Part shown: piece by piece, positions 7,893 through 53,989 of the stretch
Position numbering within the stretch: the first letter of the stretch is position 1
Layout of the letters: every line of letters starts with the position of its first letter
Assembly (NCBI GenBank): GCA_947445225.1
Contig: CANFCX010000001.1
Span: 24,189 to 88,188 of the forward strand
Direction: 5' to 3'
Source of the DNA: Rhodospirillales bacterium
Lineage (GTDB): Bacteria > Pseudomonadota > Alphaproteobacteria > CACIAM-22H2
Length of the DNA: 64,000 nt
The notes under the pieces: generated by a model
The model's input: the letters and a program-made list of their open reading frames with translations, nothing else
Told to the model about the DNA's origin: nothing
Database searches by the model: none
Made by a program: the position numbers and the translations under genes

Positions 7893-8525
7893 ATGAAGCT
7901 TTTGCTCATCCACCCGGCGACCGCGACCCGCTCGGTTCTGTCCCATGCCCTCGGCAAGATGTGGCGCGAGGCCGTGGTGGCCGAACGCGATACCGCCGGG
8001 CCGGCGCCGGGCGTCGACGAGCCGGGCATGATCGTCGTCGATGGTGCGTTGTGCGCTGACATGAACGCCGCCGATCTTCGCCTGTTGTGCCGCGCAGCCG
8101 CAGCCGCGCCCGTGGTCTTGCTCTCGACTTTCGTGGATTTGCCCGGCGTCATCGCCGCTTTCGACCGCGGCATGGCCGGCGTGGTGCCCAAATCCCTTTC
8201 GGTGGCCGCCATGGTTCAGGCGCTGCGCCTGATCGCCTCGGGTGAACGTTTCGTCCCGGCCTCCGTGCTCGCCGCCGTGCGCCCGATGGGCGGTGACCGC
8301 GGCGGGGAGACGCCCACGCTCGATCGCCTCACCCCGCGCGAACGCGAGGTACTCGGCCTGCTGCTCGAAGGCGGCTCGAACAAGGCCATCGGCCGCACCC
8401 TCAGCCTGACCGAAGCCACGGTCAAAGCCTACATGATGACGTTGTGCCGGAAACTCGGCGCGCGCAATCGCGCCCACGCCGTCCGCATCGCCGTCCAAAA
8501 CGGCTTCGCCGCCGCCGCGGCCTGA
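7893..8525 (+). CDS. LuxR/FixJ-family transcriptional regulator with atypical receiver-like N-domain
   Basis: C-terminal LuxR HTH (LTPREREVLGLLLEGGSNKAIGRTLSLTEATVKAYMMTLCRKLGARNRAHAV); N-terminus MKLLLIHPATATRSV lacks canonical acidic pocket. Confidence 0.8.
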   Translation: MKLLLIHPATATRSVLSHALGKMWREAVVAERDTAGPAPGVDEPGMIVVDGALCADMNAADLRLLCRAAAAAPVVLLSTFVDLPGVIAAFDRGMAGVVPKSLSVAAMVQALRLIASGERFVPASVLAAVRPMGGDRGGETPTLDRLTPREREVLGLLLEGGSNKAIGRTLSLTEATVKAYMMTLCRKLGARNRAHAVRIAVQNGFAAAAA

Positions 8526-8632
8526 AGTCGCCGGGGCCGCGAGCCCCACACACAAATTTCCCGTTAGGGCGCGGAGGCACCTCATACCCATCGAGCGATC
8601 GAGGGTGTGAGGGCCTCCCCCCTCGCCTCCAC
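8526..8632. repeat. GC-rich intergenic element between convergent luxR-like gene and priA
   Basis: GAGGGTGTGAGGGCCTCCCCCCTCGCCTCC hairpin-rich segment, related to GGGGGCC family. Confidence 0.4.
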
Positions 8633-40871: not shown

Positions 40872-42685
40872 ACCGGACACGTCTGCCCCAGGGCGCCGCG
40901 CTGGTCGCGTTGACCGCCGACGGCGCGCGGCTCGCCGCACGTCTGCAGCCCGCCTTGCCGGGCGCCCGCATCCATGGGCTCGGTTCCCGCATTGCCGACG
41001 CCGATGAGATTTTCTCCGACACGGCCGAACACCTGCGTTTCCTCTTCGCCGCCGGCCGGCCCATCATCGGTATCTGCGCGGCCGGCATCCTGATCCGCGC
41101 GCTGGCGCCGCTGATCGCCAACAAACGCGCCGAACCGCCGGTCATCGCCGTCGCGGCCGATGGCGGCGCGGTCGTGCCGCTTCTCGGCGGGCATCGCGGC
41201 GCCAACCGGCTCGCCAAATCCATCGCTTCCGCGCTCGGCGGCGTCGCTTCGATCACAACCGCCGGTGATACGGCCCTCGGTTTTGCCCTGGACGACCCGC
41301 CGGCGGGATGGCGCGTCGCCAATGTCGAGGCCGCCAAGGCAATGGCGGCCGCGCTTCTTGCGGGCGACTCCGTGGCGTTGGTGGTGGAGTCCGGCGACGC
41401 CACCTGGCTGCGTGAATCGGGGATCGCCTTCGTGGAAGCCGCCCCGCTCCGCGTGTTGGTCACCGATCGCGCCGTCATCGGCGATGCCTCTACGCTCGTC
41501 CTGCATCCGCCGGTTCTGGCCGTGGGTGTGGGCTGCGAGCGGGATGCCGACCCGGAGGAACTTGCCCGGCTGGTCGATGGCACCTTGGCGGCGCATGGGC
41601 TGTCGCCGCTTGCGGTCGCCTGTGTCGCCAGCATCGACTTGAAGGCCGACGAACCGGCCGTGCAGTCGCTGGCGCGAAGACTGGGCGTACCGGCCAGGTT
41701 CTACCCCGCCGCGCGGCTGGAGGACGAAAAGCCGCGCCTGCGCAACCCGTCCGAAGTCGTGTTCCGCGAAACCGGCTGTCATGGCGTCGCCGAGGGCGCC
41801 GCGCTGGCCGCCGCCGGGAGAGAATCCGTGCTGGTCGTGCCCAAGATCAAATCGGCGCGCGCCACCGGCGCCGTCGCGCGCAGTCCGGCCGACATCGATG
41901 CGACGGCGGTTGGCCGCGGGCGCGGCCGTCTGGCGATAATCGGCATCGGTCCCGGCGCGGCCGCGTTACGTACACCGGAGGCCTCCGCCGCTTTGGCCGA
42001 AGCGACCGATATTGTCGGCTATTCCCTTTACCTGGAACTGCTCGGGTCGGCCGTCACCGGCAAACGCATCCACGAACGGCCATTGGGCGCGGAGACCGAA
42101 CGAACGCAACTCGCGCTCGACCTCGCCGCCGCCGGAGCGACCGTGGCGTTGATTTCATCCGGCGACGCCGGAATCTATGGCTTGGCGAGCCTCGCCTTCG
42201 AATTACTCGACCGCGAGAACCGGGCCGATTGGAATCGCATCGCCATCGCGGTTTTACCGGGGGTTTCCGCGCTCCAGGCGGCGGCCGCCGCGGCCGGGGC
42301 CGTCCTCGGCCATGATTTCGCGGCGATTTCGCTGTCCGATTTGTTGACGCCCTGGCCCGATATCGAGCGGCGGCTGCGGGCCGCGGCCGAGGGCGATTTC
42401 GTCGTCGCCCTTTACAATCCCGCCTCGGCGAAGCGGCAACGCGGGATCGGCGTGGCCCGCGACATCCTGCTGGCCCATCGCGCCCCCGACACGCCTGTCG
42501 TGTTGGCGCGCAATCTGGGCCGCGACGGCCAAGTTGTCGACACCATCAGCTTGGCGGAACTCGGCCCCGACAAGGTCGACATGCTGACCATCGTATTGAT
42601 CGGCTCGACCCAATCGCGAAGAATGCGCCGCGGCCGGGAGGATTGGGTCTACACGCCGCGCGGTTACGAACGGAAATCGACGTAG
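40868..42685 (+). CDS. cobJ: CbiG-like (cobalt-precorrin-5A hydrolase) domain fused to precorrin-3B C17-methyltransferase CobJ/CbiH
   Basis: N-terminal ~340 aa with CbiG_C/CobE-like VGVGCERDADPEEL..; C-terminal RLAIIGIGPGAAALRTPEA... tetrapyrrole methylase. Confidence 0.85.
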   Translation: MNRTRLPQGAALVALTADGARLAARLQPALPGARIHGLGSRIADADEIFSDTAEHLRFLFAAGRPIIGICAAGILIRALAPLIANKRAEPPVIAVAADGGAVVPLLGGHRGANRLAKSIASALGGVASITTAGDTALGFALDDPPAGWRVANVEAAKAMAAALLAGDSVALVVESGDATWLRESGIAFVEAAPLRVLVTDRAVIGDASTLVLHPPVLAVGVGCERDADPEELARLVDGTLAAHGLSPLAVACVASIDLKADEPAVQSLARRLGVPARFYPAARLEDEKPRLRNPSEVVFRETGCHGVAEGAALAAAGRESVLVVPKIKSARATGAVARSPADIDATAVGRGRGRLAIIGIGPGAAALRTPEASAALAEATDIVGYSLYLELLGSAVTGKRIHERPLGAETERTQLALDLAAAGATVALISSGDAGIYGLASLAFELLDRENRADWNRIAIAVLPGVSALQAAAAAAGAVLGHDFAAISLSDLLTPWPDIERRLRAAAEGDFVVALYNPASAKRQRGIGVARDILLAHRAPDTPVVLARNLGRDGQVVDTISLAELGPDKVDMLTIVLIGSTQSRRMRRGREDWVYTPRGYERKST

Positions 42686-44505
42686 AAGGCCTCGATCTGG
42701 CCCTGGCGACCGCGCACCTCCACCATGCCGATGGATTTGACGGGAAGATCGAGCTTCGACGCCTGCCGCGTGACCCCGCTCATCACGACCACGACATTGC
42801 CGGCATTGTCGATGGACTTGCCGAGCTGCTCCAGCCGGTTCGCGGTGTTCACCGTGTCGCCGACGATGGTGTAGTTGATGCGGCCGGGCGCGCCGATATT
42901 GCCGACGACGACGTCACCCGAATGCAGGCCGATGCGAATGCCCAAGGCCCCGCCCTCGCGCCCCATGGCCTCGGCGATGGCCAGCGCGGCGCGGCAGCCA
43001 CGGGCGGCATGGTCTTTCTGTTTCTCGGGCGCGCCCCAAAAGGCCATGACGGCGTCGCCGATGAATTTGTCCACGGTGCCACCCTCGGCCTCGATGCAGG
43101 CGGTGACCAGCCCGAAATGCCGGTTGAGCAGCGCCGCGACTTCCGGCGCCGGGAGTTTTTCCGCCATCGTGGTGAACCCGGCGATGTCGGTGAACATCAC
43201 CGTGACCGTACGTTCCTTCGACGGCATCGCGCCCTTTGCCGCGTCCCATTCGCCATGGCCGACCAATCGTTGCACCAGCTTCCTGGGGACATAGGTCTCG
43301 AACCAACGCAACCCGACGACCATGGCATTGAAGGCCTGGGCCGCGGCGTTCAGCTCCACGAACAGGGTGCGGGGCAACCTTTCGACCGTATCCAGCGACA
43401 GATCGCTCACCCGCCGCGCCGCGATCGAAAGCCGGATCAGCGGCACGGTTAAATATCGGGAATAACCGTAAGCGACCAGCAACGAGACGAGCAGAACCGC
43501 GATCCCGGCGATCGCCGCCCAGCGCAGGCGTGTCAGTTCGTCGGTGATGTCGGTGGCGGCAAAATAGACGCCGACTTCCCAGGGCTTGTCGCTGTAGCGG
43601 TTCAAGACGCGCGACAACATGGCGTATTGAGTGCCACCGGATTCGGCGAGCCGGATGCCGGTCTTTTCGGTGAAGTCGCGGTCGAGCACGTTCAAACTCT
43701 GCGGACGGTCGAATGCCAGGAGAACCGGATCCCCGACCTCCGCGATCGTGGGCAGCAAATTGTCGCCGCGCGGCGGCCGGCGCGTCTGAAGAAGGGGATG
43801 GGCGAGGACCATGTGATGGTCGTAAAGAATGAAAGCCGTGCCCTTGAGGGTGCGCGCGGTGTCGTCGAGAATTTGCGAAAACTGGTCCACCTGGACGGTG
43901 GCCGCCAACAGCCCGACATAATTGCCGCCGATGCGAACCGGGTGGCGAACATTGACCAGCACCTGATCAGCGGTTTCCGGCAGCACGATTTCCGCCCAAT
44001 ACAGTCCCGTCCTATCGCGCGCCACGTCCATGGCGTTGCTGATGACCGGCATCGCGCGCACGTCGATGACGTCGAGCGCGACTCCATTCGGATGGCGAAG
44101 GGCCCGCAGCATCGAATTGTCGGCGCCGATGAGTACGAGCGAACGCACTTCGGGAGTCGCCGACAAGGCGCCGGCAAAGTATTTGCCCAGATCGCCGGTC
44201 TCGAAGGTGATGGTACCGGCCTCGATCTGGCGGGCAAGGTGGGTGAGCTGATTCTCCACCGGCCGCAGATATTGGTCGATCACGCTGACGATCTGCTGGC
44301 TTGCGGCTTCGGATTTGTCGCGCAGCAGGTCGATGGTATTGGTGCGGGCGCTCCAGATTCCGAGCGCCAGGACCGATGCCACGGCAAGGAAGACGAGGCC
44401 GCCGAAACCAAGCACCAAACCGGTGGCGATCTTGATCTCGGCCGACGGGTGCGGCGCCTCGCCCTGTGCGGCCGGGGCGGCGATGGCGGGGGAGTCGCTT
44501 TTCAT
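42664..44505 (-). CDS. Membrane-bound class III adenylate/guanylate cyclase with periplasmic sensor domain and HAMP
   Basis: Two TM segments flanking ~270-aa periplasmic region, HAMP, then cyclase domain (FTDIAGFTTMAE..GDAVMAFWGAP..RIGLHSGDVVVGNIG). Confidence 0.85.
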   Translation of the reverse strand: MKSDSPAIAAPAAQGEAPHPSAEIKIATGLVLGFGGLVFLAVASVLALGIWSARTNTIDLLRDKSEAASQQIVSVIDQYLRPVENQLTHLARQIEAGTITFETGDLGKYFAGALSATPEVRSLVLIGADNSMLRALRHPNGVALDVIDVRAMPVISNAMDVARDRTGLYWAEIVLPETADQVLVNVRHPVRIGGNYVGLLAATVQVDQFSQILDDTARTLKGTAFILYDHHMVLAHPLLQTRRPPRGDNLLPTIAEVGDPVLLAFDRPQSLNVLDRDFTEKTGIRLAESGGTQYAMLSRVLNRYSDKPWEVGVYFAATDITDELTRLRWAAIAGIAVLLVSLLVAYGYSRYLTVPLIRLSIAARRVSDLSLDTVERLPRTLFVELNAAAQAFNAMVVGLRWFETYVPRKLVQRLVGHGEWDAAKGAMPSKERTVTVMFTDIAGFTTMAEKLPAPEVAALLNRHFGLVTACIEAEGGTVDKFIGDAVMAFWGAPEKQKDHAARGCRAALAIAEAMGREGGALGIRIGLHSGDVVVGNIGAPGRINYTIVGDTVNTANRLEQLGKSIDNAGNVVVVMSGVTRQASKLDLPVKSIGMVEVRGRQGQIEAFYVDFRS

Positions 44506-44530: not shown

Positions 44531-45301
44531 ATGATCGTGCATTTCATCGGCGCGGGGCCGGGTGCCGCAGACCTTATCACGGTGCGCGGCCTCAACCTCA
44601 TTCGGCGCTGTCCCGTAATTCTGTATGCCGGATCGCTGGTCCCGGATGCGGTGGTCGCGGAGGCGCCCCAAGGCGCCCGAATCGTCGATACCGCGCCGCT
44701 CCACCTGGATCAAATCGTGGAAGAGATGCGCGCCGCCCATGCCCGCAACGAGGACGTGGCCCGAATCCATTCCGGCGATCCCTCGCTTTACGGGGCCATC
44801 GGGGAGCAGATGCGGCGGCTCGACGCTTTGGGCATCCCGTATGACGTGACGCCGGGCGTGCCGGCCTATGCGGCGGCGGCGGCGGCCCTGCGCGCCGAGC
44901 TGACCCTGCCGGGACTTAGCCAGACCGTGATCCTGACCCGCACCGCCGTGCGGGCCTCAGCGATGCCCGAGGGGGAGTCGCTGTCCCGGCTGGGGGCTAG
45001 CGGGGCGACGCTCGCCATTCATCTGTCGATCAACAACCTCGCCGTCGTTCTTCGCGAATTGACACCTTTGTATGGCGGCGATTGCCCGGTCGCCGTCGTC
45101 CACCGCGCCTCGTGGCCGGACGAGGCGATCCTGCGCGGCACACTCGCCGACATCCGCGCCAAGGTGAAGGCGGCGGGTTTCACGCGCACGGCCATGATCC
45201 TGGTCGGCCGCGCCTTGGCGCCGGCCGGCTTCGACGACAGCCGGCTTTATGCCGCCGACCATCGCCATGTCTGCCGCAAGGCCGGAAACGATCAGGACTG
45301 A
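44531..45301 (+). CDS. cobM: Precorrin-4 C11-methyltransferase CobM/CbiF
   Basis: [38 protein letters not shown]... typical. Confidence 0.9.
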
Positions 45302-46050
45302 AGCCGCGCCCTTATCCAGGCGAACGCCGCCGCGGGCGTGGCCACGGTTTCGCCCTGGTCCTTGACCGGCCGCCGCAGAAGGATCACCGGGATGCGAGCC
45401 TCGCGCGCGGCGATCAGCTTCGCCGCGGTCGCGCCGCCCCCGCTGGCTTTGGCGATGACCACGTCGATGTGGTGGCGGGCAAGCAGGGTCCGTTCGGATT
45501 CGAGCGTGAACGGCCCGCGGCCGAGAACGATTTCATAAGCGTTCAGTTGCAGACGCGCCTTGGGCGGATCGATCAGGCGCACCAGGAACCAGGTGTCCGC
45601 GATCCCGGAAAACGCCGGCAGGGCGCGGCTCCCGACGGTGAGGAACACCCGCCGGCCGAGCCCCGGCAACAACGAAGCCGCCGCGGCCGCGTCCTCGACC
45701 TCGACCCAGCGATCGCCGTCCTGACGCTCCCAAGCGGGCCGGGCGAGTCGCAACAAGGGCACGCCGGCGGCGGCGCAGGCGACATCGGCATTGGCGGCGA
45801 TCTCGGTGGCGAAGGGGTGGGTGGCGTCCACGACAAGCTCGACGTTCCGTTCGGCAAGAAAGGCGGCGAGGCCGCTCTTTCCGCCGAAACCGCCCCTGCG
45901 GACTTCCCCCGGCGGCAGATGTGGATGTTCGGTGCGGCCGGCAAGCGAGGTCACGATTTCTACTCCCGGCACCTGGCTGAGCATCTCCGCCAAGGCCACG
46001 GCCTCGGCCGTGCCGCCCAGGATGAGCAACCGGCGGCTAGGGCCCGGCAT
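45292..46050 (-). CDS. cobK: Precorrin-6A reductase CobK/CbiJ
   Basis: ATG at 46050 ([17 protein letters not shown]...); CobK-like throughout. Confidence 0.85.
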
Positions 46051-47155
46051 GGCCGAGCAAGACGCCGCCCCGATCGAAGACCGCCACGTCGACCGCGACG
46101 CCGCCGGCCAGCGCGGCCAGCGCGGTTTCGCGCGCACGGCGCGCGACCTGTTCGGCAAGCCGCGGCCCCCAGGAAGCACCGGCGGCGGCCATGATCTGCC
46201 CCGCCGTGGTGGCGCCGGCCACCGCGTGCAGCGCCTCGTCCGGTGCTCCGATCTCGCGCAACAGGCTCATCAACGCCACGCTGTCCACGGATGAACGGCC
46301 GGAATGAAGGTCGAGGTGCCCGGCCGCGAGTTTCGACAATTTTCCGAAGCCGCCGGCGATTGTCAGGCGCGGCACCGGATGCGACCTCAGATATTTGAGA
46401 AGGCCGCCGGCGAAATCGCCCATGTCGATCAGGGCGACCTCCGGCAATCCGTAGAGGCTCTGCACGGCCGCTTCCGAAGTCGATCCGGTGCAGGCCGCGA
46501 TATGCCCCCGTCCGGCGGCGCGGGCGACATCGACGCCGCGTTGAATCGCGTGAATCCAGGACGAACAGGAATAGGGAATGACAACCCCGGTGGTGCCCAA
46601 GATGGAAAGGCCGCCAACGATGCCCAGCCGCGCATTCATGGTTTTTTTCGCGAGTTCGACCCCGCCGGGTATGGAGATGGTGACCATGACATCGCCGCTG
46701 CCGCCAAAGGCACCGGCGATTTCGCCGATGGTCTGTCGAATCATCCCGCGCGGCGCCGGGTTGATCGCGGGTTCGCCGGGCGCCAGCGACAATCCGGGCA
46801 AGGTCACCGTGCCGACACCCTCCCCGGCCTTGAAGACGACGCCACCGCCCTCCGCGCCGCGCGCGACCTCGACGACAATCAACGCGCCATGGGTGATGTC
46901 AGGATCGTCGCCGGCATCCTTGATAATGGCGGCGCGCGCCCAACCGGCGCCGAGTTCACCGCAGGCGACGGCAAAACTCGGTCTTTCGCCGCGCGGCAGG
47001 GCAATCGCGACCGGGTTTGGAAAGACCCCCGTCAGCAGGGCCTGATAGGCGGCCCGCGCGGCGGCGGTGGCGCAGGCGCCCGTGGTCCAGCCACGGCGCA
47101 AATCGCGCCGGTCGGCCGGCCTGGTCGCCGATTCTTCGGGATCGACATCGGCCAC
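46037..47155 (-). CDS. cbiD: Cobalt-precorrin-5B (C1)-methyltransferase CbiD
   Basis: LRRGWTTGACATAAARAA... hallmark CbiD N-terminus. Confidence 0.88.
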   Translation of the reverse strand: MADVDPEESATRPADRRDLRRGWTTGACATAAARAAYQALLTGVFPNPVAIALPRGERPSFAVACGELGAGWARAAIIKDAGDDPDITHGALIVVEVARGAEGGGVVFKAGEGVGTVTLPGLSLAPGEPAINPAPRGMIRQTIGEIAGAFGGSGDVMVTISIPGGVELAKKTMNARLGIVGGLSILGTTGVVIPYSCSSWIHAIQRGVDVARAAGRGHIAACTGSTSEAAVQSLYGLPEVALIDMGDFAGGLLKYLRSHPVPRLTIAGGFGKLSKLAAGHLDLHSGRSSVDSVALMSLLREIGAPDEALHAVAGATTAGQIMAAAGASWGPRLAEQVARRARETALAALAGGVAVDVAVFDRGGVLLGHAGP

Positions 47156-47229: not shown

Positions 47230-48459
47230 TCACCAGGTCATCGCGCCGATACCATTCAGCCAAGCCACGGCCACAGCGATGGACAGCAGCGCGATCGGGA
47301 TGCCCGACCGGGCATGGTCGGCGAAACTCAGGCGAACACCCACCGTCGCCGCTCGCTCCACCACGATCAGATTGGCGATGCTGCCGACCAGCAGAAAATT
47401 GCCGGCGAGCGTCGATAGCAGGCCCAGGCCGTGCAGCGCGCCGCGCGGCAATTCCGGCCACATTTCCAGCAGCATCACGACCGCGGGCACGTTGCCGATC
47501 GTGTTGCTGAGGACCAGGGCCAACGGCGCCATCAAATGCAGGCGGTCGGGCAGCCAATCCTGTTCCGCCAGCATTCCCAGAAAAGCGTCGGGCAGGCCGG
47601 TGGCGGCAAAGGCGTCGTTGACGACGAACAAGGCGGCAAAAAGAACAAGAAGTGGCCAGTCGACGGTCACGAGCATGTCGCGGCTGGCGAAGCGGCGGCT
47701 GAACAGCATCGCCGAGGCAACCAAAAGCGCCGCACTTTCGCGCGGCAGCTCCGTCGCGAACAAGACGAGGAGGACACCAACCCCGAGGCCGGCGCCAAAA
47801 AGCTGCCGCCGATCCATTCTTGGCGAATCCTGAAAATCAATACTCGGACCGCGTGGCGCCAGGGACTCGCGCCATAGGAACCCCACGACGGCATAAACGA
47901 TGGCCATGGAAAGGACGGAAGGCACGACGCAGACCGCCGCGAAGCTCCAAAAATCGAGCGCGCCGACCTGGCCGATCAGGATGTTCTGTGGATTGCCGAT
48001 GAGTGTCGCCGCGGAGCCGGCGTTGCTCGCGCCGGCGAGCGCGATCAAAAAAGGCCGGGGATCCAGGCCGCGGGCACGAACCCCGGCGCAGAGCAGCGGC
48101 GTCATCGCGAAGACAACGACATCGTTGACCAGGATCGCCGACAGACCGCCGCCGACGGCCACGGTCAACGCCAGCAATGTCCGTGGGCTACCCTCGTGCC
48201 GCGCGATCCAGGAAGCGGCCGCGTCGTAAAAGCCGAGTGCCGCAAAGCGCGCCGACAGGACCATCAACCCGAACAGCAGCAAGACGGTCGGGAAGTCGAT
48301 GGCGTCGGGAAGACGGTCGGCGGGCAACACACCCGAAGCGACCAGAATGACCGCCCCGGTCAGCGCGGCGCCGGTGCGATCCAGCCGCAACCCCGGCACC
48401 CGGCCCACCGCCATCACGATATAGACGGCGGCGAAAACCGCGCTGGCTAACCAGGGCAC
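47230..48459 (-). CDS. ArsB/NhaD/DASS-superfamily anion/metal permease (12-TM), first gene of the cbiD-cobK operon
   Basis: 409 aa, highly hydrophobic, internal repeat topology; family assignment from general sequence character only. Confidence 0.65.
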   Translation of the reverse strand: MPWLASAVFAAVYIVMAVGRVPGLRLDRTGAALTGAVILVASGVLPADRLPDAIDFPTVLLLFGLMVLSARFAALGFYDAAASWIARHEGSPRTLLALTVAVGGGLSAILVNDVVVFAMTPLLCAGVRARGLDPRPFLIALAGASNAGSAATLIGNPQNILIGQVGALDFWSFAAVCVVPSVLSMAIVYAVVGFLWRESLAPRGPSIDFQDSPRMDRRQLFGAGLGVGVLLVLFATELPRESAALLVASAMLFSRRFASRDMLVTVDWPLLVLFAALFVVNDAFAATGLPDAFLGMLAEQDWLPDRLHLMAPLALVLSNTIGNVPAVVMLLEMWPELPRGALHGLGLLSTLAGNFLLVGSIANLIVVERAATVGVRLSFADHARSGIPIALLSIAVAVAWLNGIGAMTW

Positions 48460-48495: not shown

Positions 48496-50517
48496 TCAGG
48501 CGCCGTGCACCGCCATGGGCTGGGGCGCGGCGGCCATCGGAACCTGGGACCCGGGTTGCACGCGCGGCGCTGCCACCGGCCGGCGAGCTTGGGTAACACG
48601 CTCCTGCGCCGCCTCAAGGATCAGGCGCAGCAGGTCGGCGTAACGCAGCCCGGCGTAACTCGCCATGATGTTGAGCTTGCCGTCCCAGCACCAACCGGGA
48701 TTGGGGTTGACCTCGAGCAGTTTGATCGCGCCGTCGGCATCGGCGCGGAAGTCGAATCGCGCATAGTCGCGACAGCCCAGGCGCTCGAACAGCACGGTCG
48801 AGTAGTCGACCAGGCGGCGCCGCACATCCTCGTCGATCGCCGCCGGCTTGTACTTGATCTGCGTCCAATACGGCGATTCCGGCACCCATTTCGATTCATA
48901 CGAGAGAATCTTGGGCAAATCGGCGTTGAGCCCGCTGAAATCGACCTCGAGCGTCGGCAGCACCTGATAGGACAATCCGGGATTGCCGATGATGCCGATG
49001 CTGTATTCCGCGCCGGTCAGATATTCCTGCACCAGCACCGGGCGCCCCGGCAATTCCTCGCGTAGCTTTTCCAGATAGGTGATCGCTTCTTCCGGCGTCC
49101 ACACCACGGCGTCCTTGGTGATGCCGATGCTGCTGTCGCCGAAACAGGGCTTGATCAGCGCCGGAAAGATCGACGGCAGGTTCGCGGATTGGTCGTCCGG
49201 GTTGACATAGGTTTCGGCCGGGACCGGGAGATCGAGCGATTCGGCGATCGAACGGACCAGCGCCTTGTTGTAACAAAGGCCGAGGCAGCTCGCGCCGGCC
49301 CCGGTATAGGGCACGCCCAGCATTTCGAGCAACGCCGGCACATGCGGCTCGAGGAAGGCATCGTTGTTGAAGCCTTCGTCGCAGAGATTGAGCACGAATT
49401 TGGGCGGGTTGGCTCGAAGCTGGCTGACCATCGCGGTGTGATTGTCGATGAAGTCGAATTTGTAGCCCGGCAATTCGCCCAGGGCCTCGCGCAGGCGCTT
49501 GATGGTCTCGAAGTCTTCCTTGTTGAACTGGCCGCCGCGCTTGACCATGTCGGGCAGGCGCGGATCACCCATGACGACGCTGACCTCCGGGTAGGCGATG
49601 CCACGCACCGCCGTGACCGCGACCTTGCGCGGCGCCTGCGCCGTCAGGAACATACGCGTGGCCATCATACCAAGGTCTTGGTTGCGCCCGGATTCGGTGC
49701 CCACCCAATCGTGGAACCGCAGCGATTCGAAACCGACTCGTTCCAGCAGCTCGCGGATGCGTTCACGCGAATAGAGCCGCTCGGCATAGAACTGATCGGC
49801 GATCACGCCGCGTTCGGCATGCACCACGACTTCGCGCGAAACCAGGCGTTGTTGATCGTTGGCGAGCGAGCGTTCCCGGCAGACGAAGTGGTTCTGGTCG
49901 ATCCATTCCCAGGACCGGCGCTCGAAGTGCGTCCGTAGCCAGTCGCCATCGGCGAGGTCCATGGCCAGCGTCCCGTTGGAGGCCAGCGCCCGTTTCACCG
50001 CCTCCAGCACCGCCACGTCGTCTTCCTCGCGGTCGAAATAGCCGTAGGAATTGCCCATCAGCGTGACGCAGTGGAAGGAATTCTCCGGAACCCGGAATTT
50101 GCGGGCGTCGCCTTCATGGAAGGAGACGTTGAGGCCCAACTGCTTGGCGCGCTTGCGGGCGAGCCGGACCAGATACCGCGAGCGGTCGATGCCGGTGACG
50201 GCGTTGAAACCCCGGCGCGCGAGTTCGATGACGTGGCGACCCTGGCCGCAGCAGAGATCGAGGATTCGATCGTTCGGCTCCAAACCCGAGGACTTGATCA
50301 GCGAATCGATTTCGCGGCCGGTGTTGGTGTCGTTTTCGACGACATCGCCATCTGTTTGGATGTAGAGCGAATTGAACAACGTCCGCCACCAATCGGAGGG
50401 CAGATGGCGTTCGAGATCGGAAACCGGGCCAAGCGTCCGTACCGGTCCCTGCGGCTTGGGCGTACCGTTCCCATTGGGTTTGTGGACGCCGTTGCCGTTG
50501 GACGACTTTTTCGCCAT
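48496..50517 (-). CDS. Class I SAM-dependent methyltransferase fused to ATP-grasp (D-Ala-D-Ala ligase-like) domain
   Basis: ATG at 50517 (MAKKSSNGNG...); MTase motif I ILDLCCGQGRHVIELARRG; C-terminal ATP-grasp (..VLVQEYLTGAEYSIGIIGNPG..LLEVNPNPGW..). Confidence 0.7.
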   Translation of the reverse strand: MAKKSSNGNGVHKPNGNGTPKPQGPVRTLGPVSDLERHLPSDWWRTLFNSLYIQTDGDVVENDTNTGREIDSLIKSSGLEPNDRILDLCCGQGRHVIELARRGFNAVTGIDRSRYLVRLARKRAKQLGLNVSFHEGDARKFRVPENSFHCVTLMGNSYGYFDREEDDVAVLEAVKRALASNGTLAMDLADGDWLRTHFERRSWEWIDQNHFVCRERSLANDQQRLVSREVVVHAERGVIADQFYAERLYSRERIRELLERVGFESLRFHDWVGTESGRNQDLGMMATRMFLTAQAPRKVAVTAVRGIAYPEVSVVMGDPRLPDMVKRGGQFNKEDFETIKRLREALGELPGYKFDFIDNHTAMVSQLRANPPKFVLNLCDEGFNNDAFLEPHVPALLEMLGVPYTGAGASCLGLCYNKALVRSIAESLDLPVPAETYVNPDDQSANLPSIFPALIKPCFGDSSIGITKDAVVWTPEEAITYLEKLREELPGRPVLVQEYLTGAEYSIGIIGNPGLSYQVLPTLEVDFSGLNADLPKILSYESKWVPESPYWTQIKYKPAAIDEDVRRRLVDYSTVLFERLGCRDYARFDFRADADGAIKLLEVNPNPGWCWDGKLNIMASYAGLRYADLLRLILEAAQERVTQARRPVAAPRVQPGSQVPMAAAPQPMAVHGA

Positions 50518-50900
50518 TGCGCGCTCGCGTTTTCGGGTTGATGGGGAAGGAAAACCGGCTTCGCCGGAAAAGACATCGGACGCGCGCCCGCCCAGGCCGG
50601 CTTCGTGCAACGAAGCGGGTGATGAGTCTATGGCCGCCTCCGACCGTAATTTGGCCGGCGGCGGCAGACTACTCCCAGGGTCGGGATCGGGTGATTGACG
50701 AGGCATTCTCGCGCACGTTCGTCGAGCCGCTACTTAACGTCGCGGTCGGACGGCCGTCAAGCGGTTCGGAAACGATTCGAGGCGAGCGACACAGAAAATT
50801 GAAGAGTGCGACCGATGGGTCACGGTGGGCGAGTCGGGCGTGCGTCCAAACGCGGAGATTCGGCCGCCTATGTTTCGCCCAAAAGCCGGTATAGGCTGAG

Positions 50901-51746
50901 GTGATGAACGACAATTCCACGATCGATCTGCCGGTGTTCGAGAGCGGATGGGTTTGGCTGGTTGGCGCCGGACCCGGCGAGCCAGGATTGCTGACGCTGC
51001 TTGCCCATCACGCGCTCCGCTCGGCCGACGCCATCGTCTACGACGCGCTTGTCGATCCGCGCATCCTGAAACTCGCGCGGCTGGGCGCACGCCTGGAATA
51101 TGCGGGCAAGCGCGGCGGCAAGCCTTCCTCCCGGCAGCCCGACATTTCCGGACGGCTGATCCAACTCGCGCGCCGCAAACTCCGCGTGCTCCGCCTCAAG
51201 GGCGGCGATCCGTTCGTGTTCGGCCGCGGCGGCGAAGAAGCGCTGGCACTGGTCGCCGCCGGCATCCCCTTCCGGCTGGTGCCCGGCATCACCGCCGCCA
51301 TCGGGGGACTCGCTTATGCCGGCATCCCGGTCACGCATCGCGACACCAACGCCGCCGTGACCTTCGTCACCGGCCACGCCGCGGGCGGCGACGTCCCCGA
51401 CGACGTGGACTGGACCGCCCTGTCGCGCGGCGCGCCGGTCTTGGTGATCTACATGGCCCTCAAACACATCGACCGGATCGCCGCGCGGCTGATCGCGGCG
51501 GGACGTCCGGGCACCGAACCGGTCGCCATCGTCAGCAAAGCCGCGACGCCGGACCAGCGCGTGCTGGAAACGACACTGGAGTCCTGTGCCGCGGATACCA
51601 CGGCGCATCACATCGAGCCGCCGGCGTTGATCGTGGTCGGCGAGACGGTGCGGCTGCGCGCCGGCCTCGACTGGATCGGCGCGTTGTCCGGGCGGGTTCT
51701 CGACGCCGATCCCCTCCGCAACCGGATTCGGCGGAAAAGCGTGTGA
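50901..51746 (+). CDS. cobA: Uroporphyrinogen-III C-methyltransferase CobA (SUMT)
   Basis: VWLVGAGPGEPGLLTLLAHHALRSADAIVYDAL... typical SUMT. Confidence 0.9.
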   Translation: MMNDNSTIDLPVFESGWVWLVGAGPGEPGLLTLLAHHALRSADAIVYDALVDPRILKLARLGARLEYAGKRGGKPSSRQPDISGRLIQLARRKLRVLRLKGGDPFVFGRGGEEALALVAAGIPFRLVPGITAAIGGLAYAGIPVTHRDTNAAVTFVTGHAAGGDVPDDVDWTALSRGAPVLVIYMALKHIDRIAARLIAAGRPGTEPVAIVSKAATPDQRVLETTLESCAADTTAHHIEPPALIVVGETVRLRAGLDWIGALSGRVLDADPLRNRIRRKSV

Positions 51747-52039
51747 GATACCGTTCCTGCCTGCGCGCCGGGTTGTCGGGCGCCGCTTTCCTTTTTGTTT
51801 CGGCCTGCGCGCCCTCCGGCCTGCAATGGGTGCGCGAAGGCGCGGGTCCGGACGATTTCCGCCGCGACCGAGCCGATTGCCTCGACCGCGCCGGCGATTT
51901 CGACTTCATGTCCGGCGGCCGCCGCGACGAATCCCGGGAGGAACGCCCGATCGACCGCAGCCAGGGACAGATCTATCGCACCTGCTTGGAGGCGCTGGGG
52001 TATCGGCAGGTGCGCGTGAATTCAGGGCGCGGGTCGTGA
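51743..52039 (+). CDS. Small lipoprotein, hypothetical (98 aa)
   Basis: GTG 51743 overlapping cobA stop; VRYRSCLRAGLSGAAFLFVSAC lipobox; GTGA overlap with SCO1 start. Confidence 0.45.
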   Translation: MRYRSCLRAGLSGAAFLFVSACAPSGLQWVREGAGPDDFRRDRADCLDRAGDFDFMSGGRRDESREERPIDRSQGQIYRTCLEALGYRQVRVNSGRGS

Positions 52040-52662
52040 CCGGATACGCACGCATCGTGGCCGTCGTGCTCGCCGTTCTGATCGGCGGCGGCGTCGGGCT
52101 GCTGGCGCGGCTTGTGCTCTCCCCATCGGAAGCGCCGATCGTCACCGTCCTGCGCGAGGGTGCTGTGACCGGCGCCTCGTTGATCGGCGGTCCGTTCACC
52201 CTGGTCGATCAAAACGGTATGACCCGCCAGGACGCCGAATTTCGCGGGCGGCTCATGCTGGTGTATTTCGGGTTCACCTATTGCCCCGATGCCTGTCCCA
52301 CGAGCCTGCAGGTCATGAGCGACGCGCTCGACCTGATCGGCAATGACGCGCCGCGCGTTCAACCGATTCTCATCACCATCGATCCAGCGCGCGACACGCC
52401 GGAAAGACTGAAAGACTACGCCGCGCATTTCCATCCGCTGCTGCTGGCGCTCACCGGTACCGCCGAGCAGGTGGCGGAAGCGGCGCGCGCCTATCGCGTC
52501 TATTACGCGAAAGCGGCGGCCACGGCGCCGGGCGATCCCGACTACATGATGGATCATTCGTCGTTCATTTATCTGATGGGATCGGACGGAAAATACCTGA
52601 CCCATTTCCGTCCCGATGTGCCCGCCGATCGCATCGCGGCCAGCCTGCGCGATCATCTGTGA
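52036..52662 (+). CDS. SCO1/SenC-family copper chaperone
   Basis: N-terminal TM, CPDAC (CxxxC) motif, thioredoxin-like fold sequence ..HSSFIYLMGSDGKYL.. Confidence 0.8.
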   Translation: MTGYARIVAVVLAVLIGGGVGLLARLVLSPSEAPIVTVLREGAVTGASLIGGPFTLVDQNGMTRQDAEFRGRLMLVYFGFTYCPDACPTSLQVMSDALDLIGNDAPRVQPILITIDPARDTPERLKDYAAHFHPLLLALTGTAEQVAEAARAYRVYYAKAAATAPGDPDYMMDHSSFIYLMGSDGKYLTHFRPDVPADRIAASLRDHL

Positions 52663-52666
52663 CGAC

Positions 52667-53989
52667 GTGGCGACGCGCGGCCGGGGATTGATCGTCGCCG
52701 CCCCGGCCTCGGGAAGCGGCAAGACCATCGTGACCCTCGCCCTGCTGCGCCTATTGGCGCGCGCGGGGAGCGAAACGGTGGCGGCGAAATGCGGCCCCGA
52801 CTATATCGATTCGGGTTTCCTGGCGGCGGCCAGCGGACGGCCCTGTCTCAATCTGGATGCCTGGGCGATGCGGCCGGCGACGTTGAGCCGGCTGGTCGGC
52901 GATGTCTCGCGCGGCGTCTTTGTGCTCTGCGAGGGCGCGATGGGTTTGTTCGACGGCGCCGAAGGCGGCGGCGGTTCGACCGCCGACATCGCCGCCCTGA
53001 CCGGCTGGCCGGTCCTGTTGGTCGTGGATGCGCGCGGCCAGGGCGCCTCCGCGGCCGCCGTCGTGCGCGGCTTCGTGGGTTTGCAGCCGAATACGACCAT
53101 CGCCGGTGTTGTCTTCAACCGCGTCGGCGGATCCCGCCATGAATCGATACTGCGCCAAGCCATGCTACACATCGTCCCCGACGTGCCGGTATTGGGCGTC
53201 GTCCCGCGCGACGCCCGGCTGGCGTTACCGGAGCGGCATCTGGGTCTGGTGCAGGCGCGGGAACACGCCGAACTCGGCGCCCGGCTCGATGCCGCCGCCG
53301 ACGCCATCGCCCCGGTTCTCGACCTTCCCGCCATCGCCGCCATCGCCCGGACCAGTCCCCTGGCCACGACCGGCGAGTCGCCGGCCCGGCCGCTGCCGCC
53401 GCTTGGCCAGCGCATCGCCGTGGCCGCGGACACCGCCTTTTCCTTTACCTATCCCGCGATTTTGGCCGGATGGCACGCGGCCGGCGCCGAAATCATTCCC
53501 TTTTCGCCGCTGGCGGATGAGGCGCCCGACGATAGGGCGGATGCCGTCTATCTGCCCGGCGGTTATCCCGAGTTGCATGCCGGCAGGCTCGCCGCCAATC
53601 GGCACTTCCTCGAGGGCCTGCGCGGCGCGGCGCGCCGAGGCGCGGCGATCTATGGCGAATGCGGCGGTTATATGGTGTTGGGCCGGACATTGACCGACGC
53701 CGGCGGACAGTGCCACGCGATGGCCGGTCTGCTGCCGGTCGCGACGTCCTTCTCCGAGCGCCGCCTCCATCTCGGCTACCGGCAGGTCGAGTTGGCCGGG
53801 CCTTGCGCGTTGGGCGAGCTCGGCGCCCGTTTCCGCGGCCATGAATTCCACTACGCGACCGTGTTAGGCGAAGGGCCGGGCGATCCTTTGTTCAGCGTCG
53901 CCGATTCGACCGGCCAATCATTGCATGATGCCGGCTGGGTGGACGGCCGCGTCGCCGGCTCCTTCATCCACTTGATCGACGCCGCATAA
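52667..53989 (+). CDS. cobB: Cobyrinic acid a,c-diamide synthase CobB/CbiA
   Basis: IVAAPASGSGKTIVTLALLRLLARAG... P-loop and C-terminal glutaminase domain; GTG start 52667. Confidence 0.88.
   Translation: MATRGRGLIVAAPASGSGKTIVTLALLRLLARAGSETVAAKCGPDYIDSGFLAAASGRPCLNLDAWAMRPATLSRLVGDVSRGVFVLCEGAMGLFDGAEGGGGSTADIAALTGWPVLLVVDARGQGASAAAVVRGFVGLQPNTTIAGVVFNRVGGSRHESILRQAMLHIVPDVPVLGVVPRDARLALPERHLGLVQAREHAELGARLDAAADAIAPVLDLPAIAAIARTSPLATTGESPARPLPPLGQRIAVAADTAFSFTYPAILAGWHAAGAEIIPFSPLADEAPDDRADAVYLPGGYPELHAGRLAANRHFLEGLRGAARRGAAIYGECGGYMVLGRTLTDAGGQCHAMAGLLPVATSFSERRLHLGYRQVELAGPCALGELGARFRGHEFHYATVLGEGPGDPLFSVADSTGQSLHDAGWVDGRVAGSFIHLIDAA

What the first reader, a model, noticed from the sequence alone, without database searches (positions are those of the whole stretch)
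48496..50517. Class I SAM methyltransferase fused to a D-Ala-D-Ala-ligase-type ATP-grasp domain
I do not recognise this domain pairing (methylation plus ATP-dependent carboxylate-amine ligation) as a characterised enzyme. It has a Lys/Asn/Gly-rich N-terminal tail (MAKKSSNGNGVHKPNGNGTPKPQGP) and slightly lower GC than neighbours. It sits divergent from cobA. It may make a modified small peptide or amino-acid conjugate.
Basis: seen in the sequence. Interest (0 to 1): 0.55.

Follow-up and report, generated by a model that had tools for sequence, protein, structure and literature searches.

The report
Methyltransferase fused to Ddl-like amide ligase
This is a real single gene that joins a SAM-dependent N-methyltransferase-type domain to a D-Ala-D-Ala-ligase-type ATP-grasp domain; it belongs to a very widespread, strongly conserved family (hundreds of bacterial species, plus chytrid fungi and a choanoflagellate) that nobody has characterised, and it probably makes a small N-methylated peptide-like metabolite.

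Summary

It is not a Ddl. ATP-binding and catalytic residues are kept, but the D-Ala-binding residues are replaced by family-invariant ones (E15->P, Y216->W, S281/L282->G/K), and all NCBIfam Ddl cut-offs are missed.

The methyltransferase half is closest by far to NmbA, which N-methylates the cysteine amine of bacillithiol (profile E 4e-35; next hit 3e-20).

The fusion occurs in at least 567 species-level genomes across many phyla, at 58-77% identity, and in zoosporic fungi and Monosiga. A split two-gene version exists. No gene neighbourhood is conserved, so the cob genes and CitMHS permease here are incidental. A stand-alone sister clade of the ligase sits beside a CocE/NonD (S15) peptidase-type hydrolase.

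No paper on this family was found. Best reading (inference, ~0.5): a bifunctional enzyme that forms an amide bond and N-methylates an amine, giving a capped dipeptide-like metabolite. The product is unknown.

The parts
48496..50517 (-). Whole gene: 673-aa methyltransferase/ATP-grasp fusion protein. The stop codon is 48496-48498.
   Evidence: ORF list. Pfam. Full-length homologues at 58-99% identity.
50437..50517 (-). N-terminal Lys/Asn/Gly/Pro-rich tail, residues 1-27. Variable and predicted disordered.
   Evidence: Not conserved in alignment A1, and absent in P0026. pLDDT is below 50 for residues 1-39.
49618..50436 (-). Class I SAM methyltransferase domain with a four-strand Cap, NmbA-like (residues 28-300).
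   Evidence: Pfam Methyltransf_25/31/11. PDB 9ri2 (NmbA): E 3e-22 for the single sequence and 4.3e-35 for the profile, covering residues 46-274 including the Cap, 30% identity.
50239..50262 (-). SAM-binding motif I, LDLCCGQG (residues 86-93). It corresponds to VLDIAxGxG of NmbA.
   Evidence: Invariant in A1 and A3. Motif definition from PMC12719100. Coordinates checked.
49591..49617 (-). Short inter-domain linker (residues 301-309).
   Evidence: Variable columns between two conserved blocks. Low pLDDT at residues 300-305. In locus L085 the two halves are separate adjacent genes split at this point.
48583..49590 (-). Ddl-fold ATP-grasp ligase domain (residues 310-645), with N-terminal, central and C-terminal subdomains.
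49333..49389 (-). Family-specific invariant motif NLCDEG..ND.F.E.H.PA (residues 377-395). It replaces the Ddl 'LHGxxGEDG' segment that carries His63.
   Evidence: Invariant columns in A1; N377/C379/G382 are also invariant in A2, which includes stand-alone ligases. Alignment to DdlB.
48865..48900 (-). Omega-loop region YESKWVPESPYW (residues 540-551). K543 corresponds to DdlB Lys215. W544 replaces Tyr216.
   Evidence: Invariant in A1.
48676..48771 (-). Catalytic C-terminal block, RDYARFDFR ... LLEVNPNPGWCWDGK (residues 583-614). R587/D589/E602/N604/G608 correspond to DdlB R255/D257/E270/N272/G276. G613/K614 replace Ser281/Leu282.
   Evidence: HMMER alignment to 1iov/2dln. hhalign. Invariant columns. 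Coordinates checked.
47230..48459 (-). Downstream same-strand CitMHS/ArsB-type permease, 36 bp after the stop. Co-transcription is possible in this genome, but it is not a conserved partner.
   Evidence: Pfam CitMHS, E 4.5e-54. It has no counterpart next to the fusion gene in the other loci.

Best explanation
The gene encodes a bifunctional cytoplasmic enzyme.

The C-terminal domain is an ATP-grasp ligase. It uses the Ddl chemistry: ATP phosphorylates a substrate carboxylate to an acyl-phosphate, and the amine of a second substrate attacks it to form an amide bond.

The N-terminal domain uses SAM to methylate an amine, most likely the free alpha-amino group of the acyl (N-terminal) partner, before or after ligation.

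The product would be a small, N-capped dipeptide-like or aminoacyl-amide metabolite. N-methylation would protect it from aminopeptidase-type hydrolases.

Shown: the two folds, intact SAM-binding motifs, intact ATP, Mg and transition-state residues, loss of the D-Ala-specific residues, and the genetic coupling of the two activities (fused in most genomes, adjacent genes in one).

Inferred: N-methylation rather than O- or C-methylation, small-molecule rather than protein substrates, and the order of the two steps.

Unknown: the identity of the substrates and the physiological role. A stress protectant such as an osmolyte or a low-molecular-weight thiol is the most plausible class.

For: 2. New substrate site. 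E15->P322, Y216->W544, S281->G613 and L282->K614, and the His63 segment is replaced by the invariant NLCDEG. All Ddl, D-Ala-D-Lac and D-Ala-D-Ser NCBIfam models fall far below cut-off (best 112 against 243 bits).

3. Methyltransferase. Motif I (LDLCCGQG) and the motif IV/V aromatic residues GYF are invariant. The nearest solved relative is NmbA over its whole length, Cap included. The next relatives are mostly N-methyltransferases acting on amines: CypM, phosphoethanolamine, glycine-sarcosine and glycine N-methyltransferases, and sugar N,N-dimethyltransferases. The best NCBIfam methyltransferase hit is the daptide N-terminal methyltransferase, below cut-off.

4. Coupling of the two activities. 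The fusion is found in at least 567 species genomes and in eukaryotes. In L085 the two halves are adjacent genes 71 bp apart.

5. Alternative partners of the same ligase clade are also amine-modifying or peptide-cleaving. These are GNAT (P0241), SET (P0164) and prolyl oligopeptidase (Monosiga A9UYM3). A CocE/NonD S15 hydrolase lies next to 17 of 27 stand-alone ligases (20 loci in the set carry the hydrolase); those ligases share only 41-100% identity with each other, median 49%.

6. Self-sufficiency. There is no conserved neighbourhood in 89 loci, which suggests the enzyme uses common metabolites as substrates.
Against: No substrate, product or phenotype is known for any member.

NmbA similarity is only 30% identity. 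Class I methyltransferases change acceptor atom easily, so N-methylation is not proven.

The very high conservation (58-77% identity across phyla) and the lack of any transporter, regulator or pathway partner would also fit an enzyme that modifies a conserved macromolecule.

The S15 linkage concerns the stand-alone sister clade, not the fused genes, and those pairs are mostly convergent, so they are not co-transcribed.

Positions 73-305 are confirmed by the printed alignment. The hhalign confidence is low around His63.
Confidence: 0.5

Rival explanations
1. The enzyme makes a new low-molecular-weight thiol. The ligase joins cysteine (or a Cys-containing acid) to an amine, and the NmbA-like domain methylates the cysteine nitrogen, as in N-methyl-bacillithiol but on a different scaffold, in organisms that lack bacillithiol. 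This is a specific sub-case of the best explanation.
For: NmbA is the closest solved relative by 15 orders of magnitude in profile E-value. NmbA's only known reaction is N-methylation of the Cys amine of an aminoacyl-amide, Cys-GlcN-malate (PMC12719100; PMC6282198). Ddl-like ATP-grasp domains already serve thiol synthesis in bifunctional GshF (established knowledge).
Against: Identity to NmbA is 30%, below the 35% lower limit used to define NmbA homologues in PMC12719100. There is no thiol-related neighbour in any locus. The carriers include Alphaproteobacteria and eukaryotes, groups reported to use glutathione. Nothing in the sequence identifies cysteine as a substrate.
Confidence: 0.12
2. 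The enzyme modifies a conserved protein or ribosomal peptide. The ATP-grasp adds an amino acid to a protein carboxylate or amine, as RimK and tubulin ligases do, and the methyltransferase methylates an amine of the same target.
For: Sequence conservation across phyla is unusually high, and the gene stands alone. The nearest characterised methyltransferase relatives other than NmbA act on peptide N-termini: CypM and the daptide methyltransferase. A triple fusion carries a SET domain, typically a protein-lysine methyltransferase (P0164). An LRR fusion occurs in a Lokiarchaeia MAG.
Confidence: 0.15
3. It is a genuine D-Ala-D-Ala (or D-Ala-D-X) ligase for cell-wall synthesis that happens to carry a methyltransferase, as many automatic annotations say.
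For: Pfam Dala_Dala_lig_C and the Ddl fold. JGI labels many homologues 'D-alanine-D-alanine ligase', and the Synchytrium endobioticum records carry the same label.
Against: All curated Ddl/Van models are far below cut-off. The D-Ala1 and D-Ala2 binding residues are replaced. The family occurs in chytrids, blastoclads and a choanoflagellate, eukaryotes not known to make peptidoglycan (my knowledge). There is no mur/fts context in any locus.
Confidence: 0.03
4. It is part of cobalamin metabolism, because it lies inside a cob gene cluster. It could, for example, be a corrinoid-related methylase/amidase-type ligase.
For: In the window it is flanked by cobM, cobK and cbiD on one side and cobA and cobB on the other. 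There is a weak sub-threshold hit to the corrinoid-protein-associated methyltransferase CpaM.
Against: No cob gene family recurs next to the fusion gene in the 89 other loci analysed. Rfam finds no cobalamin or other riboswitch. The CpaM hit scores 44.6 bits against a cut-off of 180.
Confidence: 0.03

Closest known systems
D-alanine--D-alanine ligase / VanA family (EC 6.3.2.4 and depsipeptide ligases; PDB 2dln, 1e4e, 8evv)
   Different: Identity is 19-24%. Glu15, Tyr216, Ser281 and Leu282 and the His63 segment are replaced by other invariant residues. It fails all curated Ddl/Van cut-offs. It is fused to a methyltransferase, is present in eukaryotes not known to make peptidoglycan, and has no cell-wall gene context.
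NmbA, N-methyl-bacillithiol synthase (Chlorobaculum tepidum CT1040; PDB 9RI2; PMC12719100, PMC6282198)
   Same: It is a class I SAM methyltransferase with the same extra Cap segments, alignable over nearly the whole NmbA chain (residues 14-240 of 266). It is the best solved relative by a wide margin.
   Different: Identity is 30%. This domain is fused to a ligase, whereas NmbA is a stand-alone 266-aa protein. The carriers are mostly lineages not reported to make bacillithiol. The acceptor is unknown.
Peptide N-terminal alpha-N-methyltransferases CypM (linaridins, PDB 7WZG) and the daptide methyltransferase (NF041820)
   Same: They belong to the same methyltransferase subgroup with a four-strand Cap. 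They methylate a free alpha-amine next to an amide bond.
   Different: Similarity is weak (E 2e-13 for the profile; 64 bits against a cut-off of 175). No RiPP precursor or other RiPP gene lies nearby.
Ngg, the bifunctional N-acetylglutaminylglutamine synthetase of the NAGGN osmolyte pathway (GNAT + ATP-grasp) [from my knowledge, not tested here]
   Same: The logic is the same: one polypeptide joins an ATP-grasp dipeptide ligase to an enzyme that caps the N-terminal amine, giving a peptidase-resistant dipeptide solute. A GNAT fusion of this very ligase clade exists (P0241).
   Different: The cap is a methyl group, not an acetyl group. The ATP-grasp is of the Ddl type, not the RimK/cyanophycin type. 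No amidotransferase partner gene is present.
GshF (bifunctional gamma-glutamylcysteine ligase + Ddl-like ATP-grasp) [from my knowledge]
   Same: A Ddl-like ATP-grasp domain has been recruited as the C-terminal half of a bifunctional enzyme that makes a small protective peptide.
   Different: The N-terminal partner is a glutamate-cysteine ligase, not a methyltransferase. No GshF structure appears among the listed PDB sequence hits (best 60 of 97; best 60 of 63).
Carnosine synthase (ATP-grasp) plus carnosine N-methyltransferase, giving anserine [from my knowledge; papers listed]
   Same: ATP-grasp dipeptide synthesis is followed by SAM-dependent N-methylation to give a stable methylated dipeptide.
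   Different: Those are separate, unrelated animal enzymes. The methylation is on the imidazole ring, not the alpha-amine.

Membership tests
D-Ala-D-Ala ligase (Ddl/Van) | Three-subdomain ATP-grasp fold of the Ddl type | tested here: met
D-Ala-D-Ala ligase (Ddl/Van) | ATP, Mg and transition-state residues (DdlB K144, K215, R255, D257, E270, N272, G276) | tested here: met
   K456, K543, R587, D589, E602, N604 and G608 align to them and are invariant in the fused family.
D-Ala-D-Ala ligase (Ddl/Van) | D-Ala1 site triad Glu15-Ser150-Tyr216 | tested here: not met
   Glu15 aligns to Pro322 and Tyr216 to Trp544. Only Ser150 (Ser462/463) is kept.
D-Ala-D-Ala ligase (Ddl/Van) | D-Ala2 carboxylate site Ser281/Leu282 | tested here: not met
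   They are replaced by the invariant Gly613-Lys614 within NPNPGWCWDGK.
D-Ala-D-Ala ligase (Ddl/Van) | Score above curated family cut-off (NCBIfam NF002378, TIGR01205, Van models) | tested here: not met
   The best score is 112.4 bits against a cut-off of 243. All other models are lower.
NmbA (N-methyl-bacillithiol synthase) | Class I SAM methyltransferase with motifs I-VI and the NmbA-type Cap, alignable over the full length | tested here: met
   E 3e-22 for the single sequence and 4.3e-35 for the profile, covering NmbA residues 14-245. Motif I LDLCCGQG and the aromatic GYF are conserved.
NmbA (N-methyl-bacillithiol synthase) | Sequence identity within the range used to define NmbA homologues (35-95%, PMC12719100) | tested here: not met
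   30% identity over 221 aligned positions.
NmbA (N-methyl-bacillithiol synthase) | Co-occurrence with bshA, bshB and bshC in the same genome | not testable with these tools
   Only 64 kb of this genome is available, and I did not search it for bsh genes; no whole-genome look-up was possible.
NmbA (N-methyl-bacillithiol synthase) | Methylation of the cysteine nitrogen of bacillithiol | not testable with these tools
   This is a biochemical property. The fusion to a ligase and the eukaryotic members argue for a different acceptor (inference).
Bifunctional 'N-capping enzyme + ATP-grasp dipeptide ligase' (Ngg-like logic) | One polypeptide, or an operon, couples an amine-modifying domain to an ATP-grasp amide ligase | tested here: met
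   It is a fusion here and in at least 567 genomes. A split operon occurs in L085. GNAT and SET variants exist.
Bifunctional 'N-capping enzyme + ATP-grasp dipeptide ligase' (Ngg-like logic) | Homology to Ngg itself (GNAT domain, RimK/cyanophycin-type ATP-grasp) | tested here: not met
   There is no GNAT domain. The ATP-grasp is of the Ddl type; RimK and cyanophycin synthetase are distant.

The most novel reading that the evidence does not exclude
The family synthesises a metabolite that has not yet been described: an N-methylated dipeptide or aminoacyl-amide, possibly a new low-molecular-weight thiol or a compatible solute. It would be made by one self-contained enzyme shared, at about 50-75% identity, by hundreds of bacterial species from many phyla and by flagellated opisthokonts (chytrids, blastoclads, Olpidium, Monosiga).
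Probability: 0.3. Interest if true: 0.75.

Novelty: new variant of a known kind. Interest (0 to 1): 0.55.

Why it matters
Both domains belong to well-understood superfamilies, but this pairing has no characterised member. It is nonetheless one of the more widespread 'conserved hypothetical' enzymes:
- 686 clusters (at 50% identity) match with E <= 1e-30.
- At least 567 species-level genomes carry it.
- Members occur in environmentally dominant but poorly studied lineages (Planctomycetota, Stellaceae, Hyphomicrobiaceae, Nitrospirota, Omnitrophota and others) and in early-diverging fungi and a choanoflagellate.

An enzyme this constrained (mean column identity 73% across phyla) that needs no partner genes probably makes something physiologically important from common precursors. 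Identifying the product could reveal a new protective metabolite.

It would also correct thousands of 'D-alanine-D-alanine ligase' mis-annotations, including those that suggest D-Ala-D-Ala synthesis in fungi. And it would give the recently defined NmbA class of N-directed methyltransferases a second function.

Cultured carriers (Hyphomicrobium zavarzinii ATCC 27496, Filomicrobium insigne) make the question directly testable.

Tried and rejected
1. Gene-neighbourhood inference for the fused gene. All-against-all clustering of ORFs from 84 and then 90 sequences (fetched loci plus the window), plus Pfam-annotated contexts, found no partner present in more than 12 loci. The recurrent neighbours are lineage synteny: sigma factor, pseudouridine synthase, DUF6476 and ornithine decarboxylase in Stellaceae-type Alphaproteobacteria; RsmB in Hyphomicrobiaceae. 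I rejected the CitMHS permease and the cob genes as functional partners.

2. Riboswitch or RNA regulation. Rfam at gathering thresholds over the whole window, and at E <= 1 over 50300-51000, found nothing. Promoter and terminator scans were at background level.

3. Recent horizontal transfer inferred from low GC. Rejected, because GC3 equals that of the neighbours. Older inter-phylum transfer remains likely, because Hyphomicrobiaceae copies (58-61%) are less similar to this alphaproteobacterial protein than planctomycete copies are (65-73%).

4. Plasmid carriage. No tblastn hit in PLSDB at E <= 1e-20.

5. Literature. Seven of the nine searches were aimed at the fusion and found no paper on it. 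Two hits were checked and found irrelevant: the beta-lactone peptide paper, where the fusion is CysFE rather than methyltransferase/ATP-grasp, and the 'CAGE complex' preprint, which shows a similar phyletic pattern but concerns an unrelated ~1 MDa complex.

6. Mycosporine (MysB/C/D) and cell-wall roles were considered from memory and rejected. The methyltransferase is not of the O-methyltransferase type, no sugar-cyclase or mur genes recur nearby, and the family has eukaryotic members.

7. The AFDB Foldseek library was unavailable. The full-length AlphaFold model was only moderate (pLDDT 73.7), so I make no claim about how the two domains pack.

8. The first metagenome scan, with an alignment that was too diverse, failed.
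Full report
**1. What is in the sequence**

The minus strand carries an uninterrupted ORF ending at 48496. A longer version from 50706 is possible on paper. But 24 aligned homologues of 632-690 aa begin at the equivalent of 50517, and none covers the extension.

Pfam finds a class I SAM methyltransferase (Methyltransf_25, residues 85-182, E 2.6e-20) and Dala_Dala_lig_C (residues 450-634, E 1.5e-20).

The N-terminal Lys/Asn/Gly-rich tail is real. It is, however, a variable, predicted-disordered region that some homologues lack.

GC is lower than in the neighbours (0.63 against 0.66-0.71), but third-position GC is the same (0.81 against 0.79-0.845). The difference therefore reflects amino-acid composition, not foreign origin.

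The gene is divergent from a genuine cobA at 50901-51746. A CitMHS-type permease follows it 36 bp downstream on the same strand, and then come cbiD and cobK.

**2. The ligase half**

An AlphaFold model of residues 305-646, built on 26 diverse sequences, is confident (pLDDT 93.9, pTM 0.92).

I aligned the domain to E. coli DdlB with HMMER and hhalign (99.6% probability, 293 columns).

The catalytic inventory is kept:

| DdlB | This protein |
|---|---|
| K144 | K456 |
| S150 | S462/463 |
| K215 | K543 |
| R255 | R587 |
| D257 | D589 |
| E270 | E602 |
| N272 | N604 |
| G276 | G608 |

Most of these are invariant in the family.

The residues that hold the two D-alanines are not kept:

| DdlB | This protein |
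|---|---|
| Glu15 | Pro322 |
| Tyr216 | Trp544 |
| Ser281-Leu282 | Gly613-Lys614 |
| 'LHGxxGEDG' segment (His63) | invariant NLCDEG..ND.F.E.H |

These replacements sit within the invariant motifs GDPRLPD, YESKW and NPNPGWCWDGK.

All curated Ddl, D-Ala-D-Lac and D-Ala-D-Ser models are far below their cut-offs (best 112 against 243 bits).

Conclusion: this is an active Ddl-type amide ligase with a different, fixed substrate pair. It is not a D-Ala-D-Ala ligase.

Residues 73-305 match the alignment printed.

**3. The methyltransferase half**

The closest solved protein is PDB 9RI2, with E 3e-22 for the single sequence. A profile of the domain plus stand-alone relatives gives 4.3e-35, against 2.6e-20 for the next hit. 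The match covers almost the whole chain, including the substrate-binding Cap. Identity is 30%.

9RI2 is NmbA of Chlorobaculum tepidum. It methylates the nitrogen of the cysteine in bacillithiol, and its authors describe it as the founder of a new class of N-directed natural-product methyltransferases (PMC12719100; discovery in PMC6282198).

Motif I (LDLCCGQG) and the aromatic GYF residues that NmbA uses for SAM binding are invariant here.

The next-best relatives are mostly N-methyltransferases acting on amines. They include CypM, which methylates a peptide N-terminus. The best NCBIfam methyltransferase model is the daptide N-terminal methyltransferase, below cut-off.

**4. How common it is**

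The word-indexed search returned more than 5,500 hits. The top 120 are all full-length fusions at 68-99% identity.

The exhaustive search of 50%-identity representatives found 686 clusters at E <= 1e-30.

The carriers include:
- Alphaproteobacteria: Rhodospirillaceae, Stellaceae and Hyphomicrobiaceae, including cultured Hyphomicrobium zavarzinii and Filomicrobium insigne;
- many Planctomycetota;
- Gammaproteobacteria, Nitrospirota, Nitrospinae, Sumerlaeota, Hydrogenedentota, Omnitrophota, Chlamydiae and others.

The best match (97%) is a Lake Baikal Rhodospirillaceae MAG. That places the window.

Mean column identity over 24 sequences from several phyla is 73%. Hyphomicrobiaceae copies (58-61%) are less similar to this alphaproteobacterial protein than planctomycete copies are (65-73%). 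This points to old inter-phylum transfer combined with strong constraint (inference).

The same architecture, at 47-51% identity, occurs in eukaryotes:
- Monosiga brevicollis (A9UYM4);
- the chytrids Gonapodya, Polyrhizophydium, Synchytrium and Quaeritorhiza;
- Olpidium;
- the blastoclads Blastocladiella, Paraphysoderma and Coelomomyces.

All are annotated as hypothetical, 'ATP-grasp domain-containing' or, for Synchytrium, 'D-alanine--D-alanine ligase'.

**5. Coupling of the two halves and other partners**

In one alphaproteobacterial metagenome contig (L085) the two halves are separate genes 71 bp apart.

Stand-alone ligases of the same clade, at 36-59% identity to the window's ligase half, are numerous. 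Some have no methyltransferase nearby.

The same ligase clade is also found fused to other domains:
- a GNAT acetyltransferase (P0241);
- a SET domain, in a methyltransferase/ligase/SET protein (P0164);
- a prolyl oligopeptidase, in Monosiga A9UYM3. Its locus tag is adjacent to that of the methyltransferase/ligase gene;
- leucine-rich repeats, in a Lokiarchaeia MAG (P0184).

A metagenome scan seeded with stand-alone ligases returned 45 fused and 27 stand-alone loci. In 17 of the 27 stand-alone loci a CocE/NonD-family hydrolase lies beside the ligase (20 loci in the set carry it). The hydrolase has Peptidase_S15 plus PepX_C domains and scores 250-264 bits on TIGR00976, against a cut-off of 66. 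It is usually convergent, 14-62 bp from the ligase stop codon. The ligases in these loci are only 41-100% identical to each other (median 49%).

No such hydrolase lies near any fused gene or anywhere in the window.

**6. Context of the fused gene**

Clustering of all ORFs from 84 and then 90 sequences (fetched loci plus the window) found nothing beyond lineage-level synteny, with at most 12 loci sharing a neighbour. Individually annotated contexts from five very different genomes share nothing.

The cob genes and the permease in this window are therefore incidental. No riboswitch or other Rfam family is present. No plasmid copy was found.

**7. Interpretation**

The evidence fits a self-contained bifunctional enzyme with two activities:
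- a Ddl-type ligase that activates a carboxylate as an acyl-phosphate and joins it to an amine;
- an NmbA/CypM-type methyltransferase that methylates a free amine of the substrate or product.

All alternative partners of this ligase clade either modify amines (GNAT, SET) or cleave peptides from a free N-terminus or after proline (S15, S9). This supports a small peptide-like product whose amine can be left free and turned over, or capped.

An N-methyl cap would make the product resistant to aminopeptidase-type hydrolases. This is the logic of the N-acetylated dipeptide osmolyte NAGGN (my knowledge).

I put this reading at about 0.5. A cysteine-containing thiol is an attractive sub-case because of the NmbA link (0.12). 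Modification of a protein cannot be excluded, given the extreme conservation and isolation of the gene (0.15). Cell-wall D-Ala-D-Ala synthesis and a cobalamin role are each unlikely (0.03).

Substrates, product and physiological role are unknown.

**8. Novelty and verdict**

Seven of the nine full-text searches were aimed at the fusion and found no paper on it; the other two looked up 9RI2 and NmbA. No curated family model claims the protein.

The parts are known kinds. The combination, and the ligase clade with its own invariant substrate motifs, are uncharacterised. I rate it a new variant of a known kind, with moderate interest (0.55). It is not mechanistically astonishing. But it is a very widespread, strongly constrained enzyme whose product is unknown, and cultured hosts make it directly testable.

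Noticed in passing
L092-L168 (for example L096:8025-10076:-, L140:8036-9955:-, L146:2323-4371:-, L150:2356-4824:-, L168:2293-4404:-): Stand-alone ligases of the same clade, with no methyltransferase nearby, sit next to a CocE/NonD (Peptidase_S15 + PepX_C) hydrolase. The pair is usually convergent and 14-62 bp apart. It recurs across ligases that are only 41-100% identical (median 49%), so this is a conserved ligase/hydrolase pair of unknown function.
   Followed up: partly
L094:3720-4880:-, L140:9959-11017:-, L146:4375-5652:-: In 7 of the ligase/S15 loci a conserved ORF of about 350 aa lies just upstream of the S15 gene on the same strand. It has no Pfam or PDB match, even at E <= 1. By eye it has ATP-grasp-like motifs (KP...G.G, E-x-H-x-R), but this is unverified.
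   Followed up: partly
Proteins P0249 / P0127 (Monosiga brevicollis MONBRDRAFT_25175 and _25176): In Monosiga the methyltransferase/ligase gene has consecutive locus-tag and UniProt numbers with a paralogous ligase fused to a prolyl oligopeptidase (S9). Both lie on the same 1.3-Mb scaffold. Physical adjacency is inferred from the numbering only.
   Followed up: no
Proteins P0164, P0241, P0184: Rare variants of the ligase clade: methyltransferase + ligase + SET domain (ENA contig), ligase + GNAT acetyltransferase (JGI), and leucine-rich repeats + ligase in a Lokiarchaeia MAG. Each was seen once.
   Followed up: no
L016 (DATKVG010000067.1, 'Candidatus Bathyarchaeia archaeon' MAG), match 8001-9920: A copy 68% identical to the window protein lies in a MAG labelled archaeal. 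This is either inter-domain transfer or a binning contaminant.
   Followed up: no
L005, L006, L015, L017, L018, L024, L026, L085: In Stellaceae-type Alphaproteobacteria the gene keeps a fixed context: sigma factor, pseudouridine synthase, DUF6476, the target gene, then an ornithine/arginine/DAP decarboxylase 0.3-1.5 kb downstream. I read this as synteny within a single lineage, but the decarboxylase is a possible lead to an amine substrate.
   Followed up: partly
window 44531-47155 and 50901-53989: The cobalamin genes are interrupted by unrelated genes. cobM (+), cobK (-) and cbiD (-) lie on one side, cobA (+) and cobB/cbiA (+) on the other. The CitMHS permease, the fusion gene and a SCO1/SenC gene (51826-52662) sit in between. 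The listed cobK ORF overlaps cbiD by 143 nt, and the SCO1 ORF overlaps cobB by 47 nt, probably because the listed starts are too early.
   Followed up: no
window 47230-48459 (-): The CitMHS/ArsB-superfamily permease has the magnetosome transporter MamN as its best NCBIfam hit, far below cut-off (64 against 500 bits). It is an uncharacterised anion-permease relative.
   Followed up: no
window 42664-44505 (-): A membrane adenylate/guanylate cyclase. It has a weak dCache_1 hit below the Pfam cut-off (24 against 45 bits) and a class III cyclase domain. It lies next to the cob genes.
   Followed up: no
L035: 10729-10881: A second, isolated copy of the last ~50 residues of the ligase domain (69% identical) lies 850 bp downstream of the complete gene in a gammaproteobacterial MAG. 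It is either a duplicated fragment or an assembly artefact.
   Followed up: no
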